40,804 nt of DNA. Source: a virus. Position numbers and translations under genes: made by a program. The notes under the pieces are model-generated. The model ran no database searches and was not told the origin of the DNA. It saw only the letters and a program-made list of their open reading frames with translations. Shown piece by piece: positions 2,796-37,717 of the stretch (positions within the stretch are counted from its first letter, which is position 1; each line of letters starts with the position of its first letter). The stretch lies in the UHGV virus genome UHGV-0164601. One strand, given 5' to 3'.

Positions 2796-3737
2796 TTACA
2801 TAGATGTTTCGTTTAATTCTTCCCGACGAACGCTGTAAACGTCGGTGGCTTTTGCCAGCAGTTCGTCATCATCTGAAAGTTTTTGTGCAATGTATTTGTA
2901 AGCCTTATCCAGTTCGGAGACAGTGCTGTAATTCATCGCTGCGCTGGTAAAGGCCATCAGCATTTCTTCTGGATCACGGCTATCCGCTTTACGCGTTTGC
3001 TCATCAGGCTTTTTCACTGGTTTAGCGTTGATCAGACTGTTCATTCCCGCAGCAGTGGTCGTTTGCGGAGTAATGTCTCGCTCAACGCGCGGTGCCGTTT
3101 CCTGTAATTCGTCTGGGGTGTAGACGCCCATGATTACGTCAGGACAGTGCAGGCGAGACCAGCGTTTTGTCGCAAGGTATGCGAGTTGTTGTTTCGGATC
3201 ACTGGCCCAAAGTGTGGAGTTTCTTACCTGTGCTTGAGACAGCATTAACTCAAGCACTCGAGGTTGATCCTCGCCCTTCATGGTTGCCCATACGCGAACA
3301 CCGCAGCCTTCTTCGTCTTTTAGAGTCCAGCCTGGTGCGATATATGGATTGCCGTTTTTGGATGTTTTCTCAACAAACTTACCGATCACGCGTTCCCACG
3401 GCCCGAACCACTCGTAGTTGATGCGATCTTTTGTTGGCGACATCGTTGAGATAACTGCGTTTACTAATTGGGCTTCATAACCTAGCGTGCCGTTCACAAC
3501 ATGGGTTTTCTGAGCCACGGCAAACGGGTTCATTCCCCACTGCGCAGCCTGCATTGCCACGGCCATGCAATCAGCTGGTTTCCCGGCGAGGTGCGCCGGT
3601 ACCGTTACGCGGCTTTGCGCCATTACCTCGGCGAATTTCATCAGTTGGTTCAAGCCGTCTGGGCTGAAAATAGTTGCAGCAGTTCCAGCGATTGCTGTGT
3701 CTACTGGTGCGTTGATGTTTGCGATGTCGTTGCTCAT
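2796..3737 (-). CDS. recT: RecT-family single-strand annealing recombinase
   Basis: RecT-like core (PADCMAVAMQAAQWGMNPF...VVNGTLGYEAQL); ATG 3737 overlaps the upstream exonuclease stop as ATGA (translational coupling). Confidence 0.8.
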   Translation of the reverse strand: MSNDIANINAPVDTAIAGTAATIFSPDGLNQLMKFAEVMAQSRVTVPAHLAGKPADCMAVAMQAAQWGMNPFAVAQKTHVVNGTLGYEAQLVNAVISTMSPTKDRINYEWFGPWERVIGKFVEKTSKNGNPYIAPGWTLKDEEGCGVRVWATMKGEDQPRVLELMLSQAQVRNSTLWASDPKQQLAYLATKRWSRLHCPDVIMGVYTPDELQETAPRVERDITPQTTTAAGMNSLINAKPVKKPDEQTRKADSRDPEEMLMAFTSAAMNYSTVSELDKAYKYIAQKLSDDDELLAKATDVYSVRREELNETSM

Positions 3738-5159: not shown

Positions 5160-5744
5160 TTATTGTTTGTTTTTTTCGTTCTGGTTGATGACAAATTCAA
5201 TGTAACTTTCGATCTTTGCTTTCTCGGTTTCGGGTAACAATGCGTAGCGCGAGCGATCATAGTTGATGGTCGCAGGGTCGTGCGGGTGAATCAGTAATTC
5301 ATAGCCGTGACGCCCGAATGCGGATGCAACATTCTCCAGGGTGGAAATGGAAACGCTGACCTCATTGTTTAACAGGCGGCTGATTGTCACCTGGGCGACG
5401 CCGGATGCGCGGTGAAGTTTTCCCTGTGTTGAAAGGTCGCGGCTTTCGCTCATCCAGCGTTCCAGGTTGTGAGCCGCCAGCTGGCCAATGTCGCTTGGGC
5501 CGACAGGCTGAAAACCTTCCTGAGAAAGCGAGCGATCGATATCAAGCCAGTTACGGGGTTTATTGGCGGCAGCTTCAATTTTTCGCGCAACCTGATCGCC
5601 GATAACCTTCTTACCAAGAGCCCAGCGGTTTACCAGATTTGCCTGAGTTCCAAGTTTTTCAGCCATCCGCGTCTGAACACCATTGAATTCACGGTCGATC
5701 AAGTCGTTGAGATTTTGCCTGCGGACGTCCTGGATACTTTTCAT
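5160..5744 (-). CDS. Prophage repressor, double helix-turn-helix, no LexA-like S24 peptidase domain
   Basis: N-terminal XRE-type HTH (QTRMAEKLGTQANLVNRWALGKKVIGDQVARKIE) and a second HTH-like segment (VAQVTISRLLNNEVSVSISTLENVASAFG); divergent from a Cro-like gene; no Ser-Lys autocleavage module seen. Confidence 0.65.
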   Translation of the reverse strand: MKSIQDVRRQNLNDLIDREFNGVQTRMAEKLGTQANLVNRWALGKKVIGDQVARKIEAAANKPRNWLDIDRSLSQEGFQPVGPSDIGQLAAHNLERWMSESRDLSTQGKLHRASGVAQVTISRLLNNEVSVSISTLENVASAFGRHGYELLIHPHDPATINYDRSRYALLPETEKAKIESYIEFVINQNEKNKQ

Positions 5745-5799: not shown

Positions 5800-5862
5800 T
5801 TACCCAACAGGTAAATGCACCTCATGGGTAACTATCCTTGATTTTTGTTACCTTATGGGTGA
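5800..5862. promoter_or_regulatory. Three tandem operator sites in the repressor/Cro-like intergenic region
   Basis: TTACC-CAACA-GGTAA (5800-5814), GCACC-TCATG-GGTAA (5817-5831), TTACC-TTATG-GGTGA (5848-5862). Confidence 0.6.
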
Positions 5863-5873
5863 ATATTTATTAT
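5845..5873 (+). promoter_or_regulatory. Candidate rightward early promoter (PR-like)
   Basis: -35 TTGTTA (5845-5850), 17-bp spacer, -10 TATTAT (5868-5873); the operator at 5848-5862 lies inside the spacer. Confidence 0.45.
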
Positions 5874-5898: not shown

Positions 5899-6129
5899 AT
5901 GAGCGATAACGGACATTTCGATTTCAAAAAGCACTGGCTTGCACTTACTCCGGATGAGCGTGAAGCCTTCGCACAGGAAGCCGGAACGACGAGTCACTAT
6001 ATCCAGACTCACTTAACAGGTAAGCGCAAAATGCCAGGTAAAGTATTGATGAATGGGCTTTTTAAAGCCTGTAAAACAAGACAATGGCTGCGCTCAAAAG
6101 CAGAACTGGCATACTTCTTCTACTCATGA
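5899..6129 (+). CDS. Cro-like small HTH regulator
   Basis: 76-aa protein divergently transcribed from the repressor; HTH-like segment EAFAQEAGTTSHYIQTHLTGKRKMP; followed by a terminator. Confidence 0.5.
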   Translation: MSDNGHFDFKKHWLALTPDEREAFAQEAGTTSHYIQTHLTGKRKMPGKVLMNGLFKACKTRQWLRSKAELAYFFYS

Positions 6130-6199: not shown

Positions 6200-6279
6200 T
6201 AAAAAACCAAATGTGGTTGATCTTTTTTTTGTGTCAGCACAAAATGACCGTAATCCCAATACTAATAACAGGGCTTACC

Positions 6280-6480
6280 ATGGAAATCATTACACGTATT
6301 GATGCCGCAAAGCGCGGACTTAAACGCTACTACACCGGAAAACCATGTAAGCACGGACATGACAGTGAACGCTGGGTTTACAACGGACACTGTGTTGAGT
6401 GCACCATGGAATCAAACCGTCGCATCAGGGCTGAGATTAAGCAGATCATGATTAATTCCTCCCCACAACATTCAAGCTGA
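6280..6480 (+). CDS. Hypothetical small Cys/His-rich protein (possible zinc-binding regulator)
   Basis: 66-aa frame MEIITRIDAAKRGLKRYYTGKPCKHGHDSERWVYNGHCVEC; start chosen at ATG 6280; the alternative ATG at 6211 lacks a Shine-Dalgarno. Confidence 0.35.
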   Translation: MEIITRIDAAKRGLKRYYTGKPCKHGHDSERWVYNGHCVECTMESNRRIRAEIKQIMINSSPQHSS

Positions 6481-6495
6481 TAGCGGAGATTAATC

Positions 6496-7311
6496 ATGAG
6501 CAGACATGCAACAGATTGGGCCTGGGAGACAGATCCAGGTAGCTCGTCATTAAAGCTCATACTGCTCTCGATGGCTGACAGAGCCGATGAATATAACCTC
6601 TGCTACCCCAGCATAGAACGCCTCGTTAAAGACACTTGCCTGAATAAAAAAACCGTGCAGGCCGGGCTTATATCGCTCATGAAAATGGGGCTTATTTCAG
6701 ATACCGGAGAGAGAAAGGGGGCGACGAAAAGAGTACGGGTTTTCTCTCTTAATATAACCAAAAACGGGAACATTAAAGGCAACCGGGAAGGGGGTAATGA
6801 ACCCGAAAACGGTAATGTTACCGGAAACGGGAATATACCCAAAAACGGGATGTTGAATGATCCCAAAAACGGGATGTTGAATGATCCCAAAAACGGGATC
6901 CAGAACCAGTCATATAACCAGTCATTTAACCAAGAGAGGGAGAGCAGGACAAAAAGCGGGGATTCTGTGCCTCATGACCCCGGCGCAAACAACGCCGTGA
7001 TGAATAACTTTGTTCCTCCTGGTGGGCCAGGGCAATTAGGCAAATTTGTCATGCATGAACAATGGCAGCCATCAGATGACTTTCTTCGGAAAAGCTCATT
7101 GCAGGGGATCTACCTGGACAGTCTGCCAACGGCACAGGAACTTGCAGAGTTCAGAATTTACTGGATGGCTGAGGGTAAGGCATACCATCAGGCACAGTGG
7201 GAGCAGAAGCTGGCAAGGCGGCTGCAGATTAGCAGACAGAAGCAATCAACATTACCTGATAACAACGTTCCGCACTGGAACAGCCCTGAAGCATGGGAGG
7301 ATTTCTTGTGA
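6496..7311 (+). CDS. Replication initiator, lambda O-like (winged-helix N-terminus, iteron-encoded low-complexity middle)
   Basis: N-terminal DWAWETD...LKLILLSMADRADEY...ERLVKDTCLNKKTVQAGLISLMKMGLIS; central NG-rich repeats encoded by the iteron array; followed by a P-like gene. Confidence 0.75.
   Translation: MSRHATDWAWETDPGSSSLKLILLSMADRADEYNLCYPSIERLVKDTCLNKKTVQAGLISLMKMGLISDTGERKGATKRVRVFSLNITKNGNIKGNREGGNEPENGNVTGNGNIPKNGMLNDPKNGMLNDPKNGIQNQSYNQSFNQERESRTKSGDSVPHDPGANNAVMNNFVPPGGPGQLGKFVMHEQWQPSDDFLRKSSLQGIYLDSLPTAQELAEFRIYWMAEGKAYHQAQWEQKLARRLQISRQKQSTLPDNNVPHWNSPEAWEDFL
6758..6900. repeat. Iteron array (candidate origin of replication) inside the O-like gene
   Basis: AAAACGGGA-type repeats at about 6758, 6801, 6821; two perfect 24-bp direct repeats CCCAAAAACGGGATGTTGAATGAT at 6838-6861 and 6862-6885; partial third copy 6886-6900. 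Confidence 0.6.
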
Positions 7312-8093
7312 ACAACGTTTTTACCGCGATACAAAACCGTGACGGAGAAGCCCTTTCTCGCATGTCAGGTTATGAGCATCAGTACGTCAACAATGACAAT
7401 GTGGTGAACATGTCAGCAGAGAGGCTTGTTGATGCTCTTTTCAAACAGCTGAAACAGCTGTTTCCGGCGGCAGTGGTAACCAACCTGAAGACGCCAGAGC
7501 AGGAAGTTGCTGCAAAACAGCAGTGGATTGCTGCGTTTGCCGAAGGTGGGATCCGAACCCGTGAACAGGTTTCTGCTGGTATGCGCCACGCCCGCGCCAG
7601 TGAATCTCCGTTCTGGCCGTCGCCAGGGCAATTTATCAAGTGGTGCAAAGACAGCAAGATGGTTCTTGGCGTCACCATTGACGATGTGATGGCGGAGTTT
7701 CACCGGTACAGCAAGGAAAAAAGTTTATATCCTGGTGGTCCCGAAAGATTCCCGTGGCGACATCCGGTTATGTACTGGGTCGTATGTGATACCCGCCGTG
7801 CAATGTATCAGCGCCAGCTTAGCGAGATTGAGGTTGAGAAACACGCGCGCAGGCTGCTCGATGATTGGGCGAAAAAGGTGGCTTCCGGACAGCAGATACC
7901 CGATCCGGTGATCAGCATACAGGCAAAGCCAGAACCCATGAGTACGCCTCCGGACACAGGGAGAGACGTTTACCATCCACCAGGGCGAAGTTTCGGGTGT
8001 ATGCCTAACGCCGCCACCCTGGGGGGAATAACACCGGCGCAGTGGCTGATGGAGGAATACAGGCGGGGAAAGGCGGCAGGATTTATCAAGTAA
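7308..8093 (+). CDS. Replication protein P-like (helicase loader)
   Basis: Segment QQWIAAFAEGGIRTREQVSAGMRHARASESPFWPSPGQFIKWC matches the conserved core of lambda P; start set at GTG 7308 (GGGAGG 7 nt upstream, GTGA overlap with O stop); ATG 7293 is the alternative. Confidence 0.75.
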   Translation: MNNVFTAIQNRDGEALSRMSGYEHQYVNNDNVVNMSAERLVDALFKQLKQLFPAAVVTNLKTPEQEVAAKQQWIAAFAEGGIRTREQVSAGMRHARASESPFWPSPGQFIKWCKDSKMVLGVTIDDVMAEFHRYSKEKSLYPGGPERFPWRHPVMYWVVCDTRRAMYQRQLSEIEVEKHARRLLDDWAKKVASGQQIPDPVISIQAKPEPMSTPPDTGRDVYHPPGRSFGCMPNAATLGGITPAQWLMEEYRRGKAAGFIK

Positions 8094-8098
8094 TACCA

Positions 8099-8118
8099 GC
8101 GCGATAGCGCATTTTTTT
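8099..8118 (+). terminator. Weak terminator-like hairpin plus T7 run after the P-like gene
   Basis: Short GCGC/GCGC stem followed by TTTTTTT. Confidence 0.3.
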
Positions 8119-8130
8119 ACGCCCACATGA

Positions 8131-8145
8131 TTACCTGATGGGTAA
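8131..8145. promoter_or_regulatory. Operator-like palindrome TTACC-TGATG-GGTAA
   Basis: Perfect copy; 34 bp upstream of the ATGTGGTT motif at 8180-8187. Confidence 0.5.
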
Positions 8146-8192
8146 TAAAATATTCTAGTATCTATTAATTTCATGTCTTATGTGGTTTTTAA

Positions 8193-8555: not shown

Positions 8556-8616
8556 ATCGACGATCTTTTTAGTTATCAATGTAATCAATAAGTTATGTGG
8601 ATAAGCGAGGGTAAAG

Positions 8617-32737: not shown

Positions 32738-32890
32738 AGTGATCACCTTTGTAGTTAGGTTAATCACCACTACCGACGCCAATCGGTTGGTGGTGAACTG
32801 TGCAGGGTTGGCGTAACCGGCTACAAAGGACCCGGCGCACCTTTCGGTGCCCCCACACAGCCCACCATAGAATAGGTGCGCTTTACACAT

Positions 32891-32909
32891 AAAAAAACCG
32901 CTTATGCGG
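32891..32909 (-). terminator. Weak terminator/attenuator-like hairpin in the antirepressor leader
   Basis: CCGC-TTAT-GCGG hairpin followed on the minus strand by TTTTTTT. Confidence 0.3.
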
Positions 32910-32924
32910 CATATGTGCCTCTGT

Positions 32925-32976
32925 AGTAATCCGGGACGCCAATCCCGGCACTGGATTTTGCCAGTGCCCGATTACT
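32925..32976. other. Structured element (nested inverted repeats) upstream of the antirepressor; candidate leader RNA or small RNA
   Basis: AGTAATCCGGG...CCCGATTACT outer stem enclosing hairpins CCGGGA-CGCCAA-TCCCGG and CACTGG-ATTTTG-CCAGTG. Confidence 0.3.
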
Positions 32977-33003
32977 ATGGCACAAGAGGAGTGCAATGTA
33001 AAT

Positions 33004-37323: not shown

Positions 37324-37355
37324 TAACCCCGAATAAAACAGCGGGGTTATTGTTA
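37324..37355 (+). terminator. Rho-independent terminator after the tailspike gene
   Basis: TAACCCCG-(10-nt loop)-CGGGGTTA hairpin followed by TTGTTATT. Confidence 0.6.
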
Positions 37356-37717
37356 TTATAATAATGCTCTTAACTTCTTAAATGATATTTATATGCACTT
37401 AGATTATTAAATCTATATTATGCCTGTTATTTATGTGTTCTGTTATATGTTTTGCAGGCACTGTTGGCAGCATTAAAGGAAATTGTATTTATGGCGAAAT
37501 AGCTGGTATCGTGTTTTTATTGTGCGTAAAAATAACAGACTGCATATATTATTGTATAAAGTTTTGGAAATGAAAACACTCAAACTTACCGCTGTGGATA
37601 TGTTTTGACCATCGCGAATTGGATTGGTAATATTGGGTAACAAAAAACCATAAATGGTTTATCATGCGTAATGCTTTACTGTTCAGGAGGTAGTTATGCA
37701 TATAAACGGTGGAAAAC

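What the first reader, a model, noticed from the sequence alone, without database searches (positions are those of the whole stretch)
6758..6900. Iteron array inside the O-like replication gene
Six AAAACGGGA-type repeats including two perfect 24-bp tandem copies (6838-6861, 6862-6885) lie inside the coding sequence of the O-like initiator, where they encode an Asn/Gly-rich linker. This matches the lambdoid arrangement in which the origin is within the initiator gene.
Basis: partly seen in the sequence, partly recalled or inferred. Interest (0 to 1): 0.4.

Follow-up and report, generated by a model that had tools for sequence, protein, structure and literature searches.

The report
Phage replication-origin repeats inside initiator gene
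Six copies of a short palindromic DNA site sit inside the replication-initiator gene of a common phiV10-like E. coli prophage and are almost certainly the initiator's own binding sites at the phage replication origin, the well-known lambda-style layout in a different initiator family.

Summary
CCNRAAACGGNA occurs six times at 6758-6898 (0.2 expected per window). This includes a perfect 24-bp unit x2.6 at 6838-6899. All copies lie inside the 271-aa initiator ORF 6496-7311.

The window is a phiV10-like (Uetakevirus) temperate E. coli phage. The initiator has a confident N-terminal winged helix (Pfam HTH_36), a disordered linker and a DnaT-like C-terminal domain. A lambda-P-like helicase-loader gene follows it. 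The repeats encode the start of the linker.

The main evidence is comparative:
- Initiators sharing this N-terminal domain carry 3-10 copies of the same 14-16-bp dyad, T(C/A)CC(A/G)AAWWYGG(G/T)A, at the same gene position. They come from phages and prophages of many bacterial genera.
- The copies often sit in different reading frames, so the DNA is what is conserved, not the peptide.
- More distant initiators carry other dyads at the same position.
- The C-terminal domain and loader type swap independently of the N-domain and its repeats.

There are three caveats. The protein is not a lambda-O family member by sequence. There is no lambda-grade AT-rich block (60% against 78-80% AT). Nothing has been tested experimentally.

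A second conserved element, (G/T)AAC 9-13-mers at 6902-6939, follows the last iteron. Verdict: new member of a known kind, moderate-to-low interest.

The parts
6496..7311 (+). Replication initiator gene (271 aa). N-terminal winged helix at aa 1-88, disordered linker at aa ~90-190, DnaT-like C-terminal domain at aa ~180-265.
   Evidence: ORF. Pfam HTH_36 aa 18-67 (E 1.8e-10) and DnaT C-terminal domain aa 184-252 (E 1.2e-15). phrog_1032 'replication initiation protein', E 9e-109, full length. AlphaFold2 pLDDT is above 90 for aa 1-88 and 30-45 for aa 90-190. The C-terminus matches E. coli DnaT structures at E 1e-19 to 1e-21.
6755..6770 (.). Iteron 1 (TAACCAAAAACGGGAA), the promoter-proximal, imperfect dyad.
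6779..6794 (.). Possible degenerate iteron remnant (GCAACCGGGAAGGGGG), 24 nt after iteron 1. It matches 7 of 12 core positions by my count. Weak.
   Evidence: inference
6800..6815 (.). Iteron 2 (AACCCGAAAACGGTAA)
6818..6833 (.). Iteron 3 (TTACCGGAAACGGGAA)
6836..6851 (.). Iteron 4 (TACCCAAAAACGGGAT)
6860..6875 (.). Iteron 5 (ATCCCAAAAACGGGAT), a perfect 5+5 dyad preceded by a GATC site.
6884..6899 (.). Iteron 6 (ATCCCAAAAACGGGAT), a perfect dyad flanked by GATC on both sides.
6902..6939 (.). Second repeat element: AGAACCAGTCATAT AACCAGTCATTT AACCAAGAGAGG, (G/T)AAC-initiated 12-mers. Proposed unwinding or single-strand-binding element of the origin (inferred).
   Evidence: TRF 12-bp x2.4. A like element follows the last iteron in most diverse homologues, in varying reading frames. 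phiV10 has one extra unit.
6739..6778 (.). Least stable 40 nt within +/-150 nt of the array (70% AT), overlapping iteron 1. Alternative or weak unwinding candidate.
   Evidence: top 2.2% of 40-nt windows in the window
7293..8093 (+). Lambda-P-like helicase-loader gene. The start annotated in phiV10 corresponds to GTG at 7308, which overlaps the initiator stop codon.
   Evidence: Pfam Phage_lambda_P E 1.5e-56. phrog_109 'P-like helicase loader'. phiV10 annotation..
5845..5873 (+). Candidate early rightward promoter, between the divergent repressor gene (5160-5744, -) and the cro/cII-like ORF (5899-6129, +). It would drive transcription through the origin.
   Evidence: Consensus match only; gene layout.

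Best explanation
The array is the initiator-binding (iteron) half of the phage's origin of replication, embedded in the initiator's own gene.

**Proposed sequence of events**
1. Early rightward transcription makes the initiator and the P-like loader.
2. Initiator dimers use the N-terminal winged helix to bind the six 16-bp dyad sites T(C/A)CC(A/G)AAAACGG(G/T)A. The sites are spaced 45/18/18/24/24 bp. Together they build an O-some-like nucleoprotein complex on DNA that carries an A-tract in every site.
3. The flanking DNA opens. The most likely place is the (G/T)AAC 12-mer repeats at 6902-6939, immediately after the last iteron.
4. The flexible linker lets the DnaT-like C-terminal domain hold single-stranded DNA and/or recruit the P-like loader carrying host DnaB.

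**Shown here**
- The repeats, their dyad symmetry and their position in the gene.
- The domain architecture of the initiator.
- Conservation of the motif at the DNA level, and its co-inheritance with the N-terminal domain.

**Inferred by analogy with lambda and P22**
- Binding of the initiator to the repeats.
- Strand opening and its location.
- Helicase loading at this site.
For: **1. Non-random array.** Six copies within 141 bp, against 0.2 expected per 40.8 kb. It is the strongest tandem-repeat cluster in the window.

**2. Position.** The array encodes aa 87-135. That lies between a confident winged helix (pLDDT above 90, aa 1-88) and a low-confidence linker. The gene is followed by a lambda-P-like loader gene.

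**3. Selection on the DNA.**
- In homologues with 43-87% N-domain identity, the same core CC[AG]A[AT][AT]N[CT]GG occurs 3-10 times at gene nt ~260-520. These homologues include Edwardsiella Edno5, Vibrio Her, Acinetobacter phages, PPompW, Burkholderia Bcep176, EBPR podovirus 1 and 27 of 65 species-level prophage loci.
- Motif density is 10.9 and 6.7 per kb in the linker, against 0.07-0.08 per kb-strand outside.
- Copies are spaced 17, 22, 23, 25 or 34 nt, so one DNA motif is read in two or three frames. In Vibrio salinus L134, CCAAAAACGG is read as PKNG, PKTE and SQKR. Of the 27 loci with at least 3 copies, 15 use more than one frame.
- The spacing plan 45/17/17/24/24 recurs across genera. The window has 45/18/18/24/24.

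**4. Co-variation and modularity.**
- More distant HTH_36 initiators have other dyad repeats at the same position. Examples are phi2, Asa56, Min27, IMG/VR loci L124-L132, an Acinetobacter clade, Halodesulfovibrio and Sphingobium.
- The N-domain plus iterons is joined to different C-termini and partners: a DnaT-like domain with P here, a lambda-O C-terminus with P in Edno5, and another C-terminus with a DnaB-like helicase in Acinetobacter phages.
- Conversely, Tyrion and a Klebsiella prophage keep this C-terminus and P but have another N-domain and lack the motif.

**5. Codon use in the array.** Pro is CCC in 4 of 4 cases (8% genome-wide). The core Gly is GGG in 5 of 6 cases (18% genome-wide).

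**6. Natural control.** The domesticated cellular homologue DopC has the same HTH_36 + DnaT_C architecture next to a P-like gene. It is reported to have no iteron-like sequences (PMC5509034). The protein therefore does not need the repeats.

**7. Precedent.** Lambda has 4 iterons, Stx phages have 6, and P22 has its origin in the middle of the initiator gene (PMC7466680).
Against: - There is no experimental mapping of an origin in this phage group in the searched literature.
- There is no lambda-grade AT-rich unwinding block. The best 40 nt after iteron 6 is 60% AT (dG -48.7), against 77.5% and 80% (dG about -43) in lambda and P22. The window holds several far more AT-rich stretches elsewhere, for example 8142-8181 and about 37350-37450.
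- In this window all six copies are in one frame. The last two units are identical over 24 bp. Copy number varies from 4 to 9 among near-identical prophages. Within this lineage alone, recent slippage of a coding repeat would look the same.
- Homology of the N-domain to lambda O is not demonstrable here.
- Structural neighbours are only generic winged-helix proteins.
Confidence: 0.82

Rival explanations
1. The repeats are only a slippage-prone, low-complexity coding repeat that makes a flexible Asn/Gly-rich linker. They have no function as DNA.
For: - All six copies are in one frame, and two 24-bp units are identical.
- Copy number of the 18-, 24- and 12-bp units varies, always in frame, among 78 near-identical prophages and phage records.
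- The region is predicted to be disordered.
Against: - The same DNA motif is kept in two or three reading frames in many homologues.
- Each unit has dyad symmetry.
- Rare codons are fixed in the cores.
- The motif changes with the N-terminal domain, not with the linker or the C-terminus.
- DopC has the same architecture and is reported without repeats (PMC5509034).
Confidence: 0.06
2. The dyads are real initiator-binding sites, but their role is regulatory: autoregulation of the replication operon, copy-number control or incompatibility by titration, or a roadblock to transcription. DNA synthesis starts somewhere else in the genome.
For: - There is no strong AT-rich block next to the array.
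- Much more AT-rich intergenic DNA lies 1.2 kb downstream, at 8142-8181.
- In Stx phages some iterons are bound only weakly yet are still needed (PMC7466680).
Against: - A second conserved DNA element sits directly after the last iteron across the whole superfamily.
- In Edno5 that element occupies the place of lambda's AT-rich region, between the last iteron and a stretch homologous to the right-hand part of lambda ori.
- No other repeat cluster exists in the window.
- No DnaA box lies near any candidate site. The only one in the window is at 8596.
Confidence: 0.08
3. The repeats act at the RNA level, or for a host factor, rather than for the phage initiator. Examples are mRNA hairpins affecting translation or stability, or clustered GATC sites for Dam/SeqA.
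For: - RNA folding of 6750-6940 is somewhat more stable than shuffles (z = -2.49; 3 of 200 shuffles fold as well).
- Three GATC sites lie within 38 bp at 6859-6897. This is the second-tightest GATC triplet in the window.
- There are weak terminator-like hairpins on the - strand.
Against: - The excess RNA stability is what any array of palindromic sites gives.
- No Rfam family matches.
- Most homologues with the same dyads lack GATC in them, for example Her, EBPR1 and Bcep176.
- The motif tracks the phage-encoded DNA-binding domain across hosts from Escherichia to Burkholderia.
Confidence: 0.03

Closest known systems
Lambda origin (ori-lambda) inside gene O, and the 6-iteron origins of Stx phages
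   Same: - Direct repeats of a 16-19-bp site with internal dyad symmetry and a central A-tract. Lambda has ATCCCTCAAAACGAGGGA; here the site is ATCCCAAAAACGGGAT.
- The repeats lie in the middle of the initiator gene, in the linker-coding segment.
- A P-type helicase-loader gene is next, with overlapping stop and start.
- Iteron number varies between relatives: 4 against 6 in lambda and Stx phages, 4-9 here.
   Different: - The initiator does not match Pfam Phage_rep_O or the lambda-O C-terminal domain. It is HTH_36 plus a DnaT C-terminal domain.
- There is no 40-bp block of about 78% AT. The position is taken by (G/T)AAC 12-mers at 60% AT.
- Spacing is 18/24 bp rather than about 20-24 bp.
P22 origin inside gene 18 (annotated rep_origin 32840-32984)
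   Same: Repeats (TCGGTAAAAC-type) lie in the middle of a 271-aa initiator gene. They are followed by a region with short direct repeats (ACAAAAGACAATA x2).
   Different: - P22's partner is a DnaB-like helicase (gp12), not a P-like loader.
- There is no significant protein similarity (E 0.21).
- P22 has an 80% AT block.
DopC/DopE of Cellvibrionales and Oceanospirillales (Brezellec et al. 2017, PMC5509034) and E. coli DnaT
   Same: - The same protein architecture: HTH_36 N-terminus plus DnaT C-terminal domain, encoded next to a lambda-P-like gene.
- The C-terminal 85 aa are about 50% identical to E. coli DnaT by my count on the printed alignment (E 1e-19 to 1e-21).
   Different: - DopC is a resident cellular gene reported to lack iterons and origin function.
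- The gene here is a prophage gene, present in 424 of 5426 complete E. coli genomes, and carries a full iteron array.
Iteron plasmids (pPS10/RepA, R6K/pi, RK2/TrfA, F/RepE)
   Same: Winged-helix initiators bind arrays of direct repeats next to an unwinding element. That element contains short repeats (13-mers), some of which are bound as single strands by the Rep protein (PMC4081077 abstract).
   Different: - Plasmid iterons lie outside the rep gene.
- Plasmid Rep proteins have two WH domains (Rep_3). No such Pfam match was found here.
- Plasmid origins usually carry DnaA boxes, and none lies near this array.

Membership tests
Lambdoid in-gene iteron origin (ori-lambda / P22 ori class) | Four or more direct repeats of a ~16-19-bp site with internal dyad symmetry | tested here: met
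   Six copies, with perfect 5+5 dyads in the last two; 0.2 copies expected by chance.
Lambdoid in-gene iteron origin (ori-lambda / P22 ori class) | The array lies inside the initiator gene, in the segment coding the linker between the DNA-binding and partner-binding domains | tested here: met
   The array encodes aa 87-135. HTH_36 spans aa 18-67 and the DnaT C-terminal domain spans aa 184-252. pLDDT is above 90 up to aa 88 and below 50 for aa 95-210.
Lambdoid in-gene iteron origin (ori-lambda / P22 ori class) | The initiator gene is followed directly by the helicase-loader or helicase gene | tested here: met
   ORF 7293/7308-8093 matches Phage_lambda_P at E 1.5e-56.
Lambdoid in-gene iteron origin (ori-lambda / P22 ori class) | A strongly AT-rich (~75-80% AT, ~40 bp) unwinding region flanks the last iteron | tested here: not met
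   60% AT (dG -48.7) after iteron 6 and 67.5-70% before iteron 1, against 77.5% in lambda and 80% in P22 (dG about -43).
Lambdoid in-gene iteron origin (ori-lambda / P22 ori class) | The repeats are conserved as DNA and co-vary with the initiator's DNA-binding domain (origin specificity module) | tested here: met
   The same dyad occurs in two or three frames in homologues. Other dyads occur in more distant ones. C-termini and loaders swap independently.
Lambdoid in-gene iteron origin (ori-lambda / P22 ori class) | The initiator binds the repeats, and the fragment supports initiator/loader-dependent replication | not testable with these tools
   Needs EMSA or footprinting and a minimal-replicon assay.
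Lambda O protein family (Pfam Phage_rep_O N-terminus + lambda-O C-terminal domain) | Significant sequence match to the lambda O N-terminal domain | tested here: not met
   No Pfam hit other than HTH_36 and DnaT. BLASTP E 0.07. hhalign probability 3.8%. A paper reports an HHpred link between the lambda O N-terminus and HTH_36 (PMC5509034); this was not reproduced here.
Lambda O protein family (Pfam Phage_rep_O N-terminus + lambda-O C-terminal domain) | Lambda-O-type C-terminal (P-binding) domain | tested here: not met
   The C-terminus is DnaT-like. Edno5 shows what a lambda-O C-terminus on this N-domain looks like.
HTH_36 + DnaT_C initiators paired with P-like loaders (PHROG 1032; DopC-like architecture) | N-terminal HTH_36 winged helix | tested here: met
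   PF13730 E 1.8e-10. The model shows a winged helix with pLDDT above 90. Foldseek neighbours are all winged-helix proteins.
HTH_36 + DnaT_C initiators paired with P-like loaders (PHROG 1032; DopC-like architecture) | C-terminal DnaT-type three-helix domain | tested here: met
   PF17948 E 1.2e-15. PDB DnaT chains at E 1e-19 to 1e-21.
HTH_36 + DnaT_C initiators paired with P-like loaders (PHROG 1032; DopC-like architecture) | Full-length match to the phage family and an adjacent P-like gene | tested here: met
   phrog_1032 E 9e-109 over aa 1-269; phrog_109 for the next gene.
Plasmid iteron replicons (Rep_3 / RepA-pi-TrfA type) | Two-winged-helix Rep_3-type initiator with iterons outside the gene, plus DnaA boxes | tested here: not met
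   No Rep_3 match. The iterons are inside the gene. The only DnaA box in the window is at 8596.

The most novel reading that the evidence does not exclude
The array may be one instance of an origin design that, as far as my searches show, has not been described as such. It would be shared by HTH_36-type phage initiators across Gamma- and Betaproteobacteria and seen in a few Alphaproteobacteria and Desulfovibrionales.

The design has three features:
- A set of dyad iterons with a fixed spacing plan: about 45, 17-18, 17-18, then 22-24, 22-24 bp.
- Immediately after the last iteron, 2-5 (G/T)AAC-initiated 9-13-mers that are not particularly AT-rich.
- These short repeats stay the same even where the iterons have changed completely.

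In this reading the (G/T)AAC repeats, not an AT-rich block, are the unwinding or helicase-entry element. They would be recognised as single strands by a conserved part of the initiator or by the host helicase machinery.
Probability: 0.35. Interest if true: 0.5.

Novelty: new member of a known kind. Interest (0 to 1): 0.33.

Why it matters
**Annotation.** The result gives a concrete, testable origin (6755-6939) for the phiV10/Uetakevirus-type prophages. These sit in about 8% of complete E. coli genomes. Public annotation calls the initiator only 'primosomal protein' or 'DnaT-like ssDNA-binding protein', and no origin feature appears in the phiV10 stretch I inspected.

**Prediction rule.** The N-terminal winged helix, its dyad iterons and a (G/T)AAC repeat element travel together as one module. 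That module recombines with different helicase-recruiting C-termini. This lets origins and their specificity be predicted from sequence in many phages.

**Practical uses.** phiV10 is used as a reporter and engineering chassis for O157 detection (PMC7552063, title and abstract only). Knowing the cis-acting origin, and that recoding this stretch of the gene is risky, is useful there. The array is also a hotspot of length variation and assembly breaks.

**Limit.** None of this overturns anything. It extends the lambda paradigm.

Tried and rejected
- **Homology to lambda O or P22 gp18.** BLASTP and profile-against-sequence hhalign were not significant. I therefore do not file the protein in the lambda O family.
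- **AT-rich unwinding element.** Nearest-neighbour stability and AT profiles show only a modest minimum at 6739-6778 and 60% AT downstream. The lambda-like DUE expectation was not met.
- **GC skew.** The cumulative minimum is at about 4-6 kb, but it coincides with the switch in transcription direction, so it says nothing about the origin.
- **DnaA boxes.** None lies near the array.
- **Known RNA families.** None matches. RNA folding gives z = -2.49, as expected for palindromic sites.
- **Structure search.** Only generic winged-helix neighbours were found (best E 1.8e-3), so there is no specific initiator relative.
- **Literature.** I found no paper in the library on an origin in phiV10 or epsilon15, and none containing the iteron sequence CCAAAAACGGGA.
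- **Collection scans that gave little.**
  - The first related-loci run with the 9-sequence alignment failed because no conserved stretch was found.
  - The scan with 4 sequences returned only near-identical prophages. These were useful for copy-number variation but not for diversity.
  - The EBPR query returned one locus.
- **Full-length protein search.** It listed only near-identical E. coli proteins.
Full report
**1. What is in the sequence**

- Tandem Repeats Finder finds three adjacent arrays. They are an 18-bp unit x3.1 at 6793-6848, a perfect 24-bp unit x2.6 at 6838-6899, and a 12-bp unit AACCAGTCATAT x2.4 at 6904-6932.
- These are three of only six tandem-repeat rows in the whole 40.8-kb window, and they include the top score.
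- The shared core CCNRAAACGGNA occurs at 6758, 6803, 6821, 6839, 6863 and 6887, all on the + strand. One stray copy is at 3350 on the - strand. Shuffles give 0.2 per window.
- Each unit is a 16-bp dyad. The last two are perfect: ATCCC-AAAAAC-GGGAT at 6860-6875 and 6884-6899.
- Start-to-start spacing is 45, 18, 18, 24 and 24 bp. A degenerate copy may lie at 6779-6794.

**2. Context**

The window is a phiV10-like (Uetakevirus) temperate E. coli phage. Positions 6400-8100 are 97.5-99.2% identical to eight full-length phage records, including phiV10, EC.W1-9, phiv142-3 and PAS61.

The repeats lie in ORF 6496-7311, which encodes 271 aa.
- Pfam gives HTH_36 at aa 18-67 and the DnaT C-terminal DNA-binding domain at aa 184-252. 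PHROGs gives phrog_1032 'replication initiation protein', full length, E 9e-109.
- The C-terminal 85 residues are about 50% identical to E. coli DnaT structures by my count on the printed alignment (E 1e-19 to 1e-21).
- The next ORF (7293/7308-8093) is a lambda-P-like helicase loader (PF06992, E 1.5e-56).
- Upstream lie a divergent two-HTH repressor gene (5160-5744, -), a cro/cII-like ORF and a small ORF of unknown function. This is a lambdoid early-right layout.
- An AlphaFold2 model built from 100 sequences gives pLDDT above 90 for aa 1-88, which form a helical bundle plus a beta-hairpin wing. It gives pLDDT 30-45 for aa 90-190.
- Foldseek finds only winged-helix DNA-binding proteins: MarR, Fur, ArsR and staphylococcal RepA_N.

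The repeats (aa 87-135) therefore encode the first part of a disordered interdomain linker.

**3. Is the repeat selected as DNA or as peptide?**

Within this lineage the question cannot be settled.
- All six copies share one reading frame.
- Among 78 near-identical IMG/VR prophages and the phage records, the 18-, 24- and 12-bp units expand and contract in frame. Core copies range from 4 to 9, the 24-bp unit from 1 to 5, and the 12-bp unit from 1 to 3. This is what slippage in any coding repeat would give.
- Codon use leans towards DNA-level constraint. Pro is CCC in 4 of 4 cases, against 8% genome-wide. The core Gly is GGG in 5 of 6 cases, against 18%.

The stronger evidence comes from more distant relatives of the N-terminal domain (tblastn, 124 phage records).
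- Eight phages carry 3-6 copies of the same dyad, T(C/A)CC(A/G)AA(A/T)(A/T)(C/T)GG(G/T)A, at gene nt ~260-460. They are Edwardsiella Edno5, Vibrio Her, Acinetobacter Acb75, LZ35 and Ab105, PPompW, Burkholderia Bcep176 and EBPR podovirus 1. Their N-domains are 42-57% identical to the window's.
- Spacings of 17, 22, 25 and 34 nt put the copies into different reading frames.
- In 65 species-level prophage loci from bacterial genomes, 27 have at least 3 strict-core copies in the linker. Of these, 15 use more than one frame.
- In Vibrio salinus (L134), CCAAAAACGG is translated as PKNG, PKTE and SQKR.
- Motif density is 6.7-10.9 per kb in the linker, against 0.07-0.08 per kb-strand in the flanks.
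- The spacing plan is itself conserved. Acinetobacter has 45/17/17/24/24, Vibrio and Acinetobacter loci have 17/17/24/24, and the window has 45/18/18/24/24. The window's 24-bp spacing is therefore architecture, not just a recent duplication.

**4. Co-variation and modularity**

Loci that lack the strict core have variant or different dyads at the same position, often with the same spacing.
- An Acinetobacter clade has GTCCCAACAATGGGAC.
- Halodesulfovibrio has GTCCCAAAAGTGGGAC.
- Sphingobium has TCGGAAAAATCCGA.
- phi2, L126 and L131 have CACCCCCGCAG...CTGC, with up to 11 copies.
- L124 has CCCTTGTCA-N4-TGACAAGG.
- Min27 has GGTGGGGCAGGAGCTGCCC.

The N-domain plus iterons is joined to different C-termini and partners.
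- Here it is a DnaT-like domain with a P-like loader.
- In Edno5 it is a lambda-O C-terminus with P.
- In Acinetobacter phages it is another domain with a DnaB-like helicase.
- Conversely, Enterobacter phage Tyrion and a Klebsiella prophage keep this C-terminus and P (78-81% nt identity from 7265 onward) but have an unrelated N-domain and none of these dyads.

Brezellec et al. 2017 describe the cellular, domesticated DopC. It has the same HTH_36 + DnaT_C architecture next to a P-like DopE gene. They report no iteron-like sequences in it (PMC5509034). The protein architecture therefore does not require the repeats. All of this is the behaviour of an origin-specificity module, as in lambda, 434, phi80 and P22. 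The comparison with those phages rests on established knowledge, and on PMC7466680.

**5. Where would the DNA open?**

- The least stable 40 nt after iteron 6 is 60% AT (dG -48.7 kcal/mol).
- The least stable 40 nt before iteron 1 is 67.5-70% AT. This ranks in the top 2.2% of windows in this genome.
- Lambda and P22 have 77.5% and 80% AT (about -43 kcal/mol).

A second conserved DNA element follows the last iteron instead. It consists of 2-5 direct repeats of 9-13 nt starting (G/T)AAC.
- In the window it reads AGAACCAGTCATAT AACCAGTCATTT AACCAAGAGAGG (6902-6939).
- It recurs in Her, Bcep176, EBPR1, phi2, Min27, L124, L126, L132 and others, again in varying frames (QNQS against EPVI).
- It persists where the iterons are completely different.
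- In 11 of 15 diverse loci (my reading), the densest [GT]AAC[CA] 50-nt window of the ~3-kb locus is in this region.
- In Edno5 the element lies between the last iteron and a stretch homologous to the right-hand part of lambda ori. Edno5 has TCCGAGAATTCTAACGAATCCTCAGAC and lambda has TCAGAGAATTCTGGCGAATCCTCTGAC. That is the position of lambda's AT-rich region.

I therefore infer that this is the unwinding or helicase-entry element. This step is an inference.

**6. Mechanism proposed**
1. The initiator and loader are expressed from the early rightward operon.
2. Winged-helix dimers bind the six dyads.
3. An O-some-like complex forms, helped by the A-tract in each site.
4. The DNA opens at 6902-6939.
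5. The DnaT-like C-domain engages single-stranded DNA and/or the loader-DnaB complex.

One further observation supports initiator-loader contact. An alternative initiator C-terminal tail (...DWHNTDWIDEVWDEINSRTS, which resembles lambda O's ...TNTDWIYGVDL) always comes with an alternative N-terminal ~100 aa of the P-like protein.

**7. Rivals**
- A purely peptide-level repeat is contradicted by the cross-frame conservation.
- A regulatory-only role for real binding sites cannot be excluded without origin mapping.
- An RNA-level or host-factor role has little support. There is no Rfam match. Folding gives z = -2.49, as expected for palindromes. The GATC sites are not conserved in homologues.
- No DnaA box is nearby. 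GC skew is confounded by transcription direction.

**8. Novelty and score**

An origin with iterons inside the initiator gene is textbook for lambda and P22. The architecture HTH_36 + DnaT_C next to P is published (PMC5509034). I found no paper in the searched library that maps or describes an origin for phiV10 or epsilon15-like phages, or that contains this iteron sequence. The phiV10 stretch I inspected carries no origin feature.

This is a new member of a known kind. It is common, being present in 424 of 5426 complete E. coli genomes, and unsurprising to a specialist. The one modestly new point is the conserved spacing plan plus the (G/T)AAC repeat element across a broad initiator superfamily. 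Interest: 0.33.

Noticed in passing
window 6902-6939; also L009 ~1970-2005, L013 ~1935-1975, L017 ~1850-1900, L015 ~1860-1925, L124/L126/L132: Short direct repeats starting (G/T)AAC, 9-13 nt and 2-5 copies, follow the last iteron in most HTH_36-type initiator genes. They are present even where the iterons differ completely, and they are read in different frames. They take the place of lambda's AT-rich region.
   Followed up: partly
L035, L032, L036 vs L020 (IMG/VR relatives); window 7230-7600: Near-identical initiators come with two alternative C-terminal tails...PHWNSPEAWEDFL as in the window, or ...DWHNTDWIDEVWDEINSRTS, which resembles the lambda O C-terminus. The second tail always goes with a different N-terminal ~100 aa of the P-like loader. 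This suggests that these two segments are the interacting surfaces and are exchanged together.
   Followed up: partly
window 6859-6897: Three GATC (Dam) sites lie within 38 bp, flanking iterons 5 and 6. This is the second-tightest GATC triplet in the window. Edno5 has the same arrangement. The unrelated Tyrion-type initiator has GGATCAG x3 in its linker (L004 ~2160-2185). This might point to Dam/SeqA control, which I did not test.
   Followed up: no
L004 1780-2547 and L005 1778-2545 (Enterobacter phage Tyrion, Klebsiella prophage ST512-KPC3phi13.3): These Uetakevirus-type replication modules keep the DnaT-like C-terminus and the P-like loader. Their N-terminal domain is unrelated (MARIRTIKPEFW...). 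Apart from a 7-bp GGATCAG x3 run, their binding sites were not identified.
   Followed up: no
L002 (Escherichia phage BP9, PP488543.1, 134.3-137.0 kb) and H1 (phage PH444, PP350014.1): A 138-kb record classified as Vequintavirus and a 115-kb unannotated record each contain this temperate-phage replication module at 97.5-99.2% identity. These records may be chimeric or co-assembled.
   Followed up: no
L003 (Escherichia phage YDC107_2, CP025713.1): Single-base indels in the A-runs of the iterons split the initiator gene into fragments in this record. These are probably homopolymer sequencing errors. Many database proteins of this family are 'partial' or end within the repeat region, so the array may be an assembly and annotation trouble spot.
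   Followed up: partly
window 6211-6480: A small ORF (89 aa from the first ATG; phrog_1081, unknown function) lies between the cro/cII-like gene and the initiator. It has a Cys/His-rich stretch, CKHGHDSERWVYNGHCVEC. It is conserved in phiV10 (p42) and epsilon15 (p40).
   Followed up: no
window 8142-8181 and ~37350-37450: These are the most AT-rich, least stable stretches of the window (82-85% AT). The first lies in the intergenic gap just after the P-like gene, next to a - strand promoter-like site. It is not linked to any repeats.
   Followed up: no
window 3350-3361 (- strand): A single stray match to the iteron core (CCAAAAACGGCA) lies far from the array. It is within chance expectation for one copy.
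   Followed up: no
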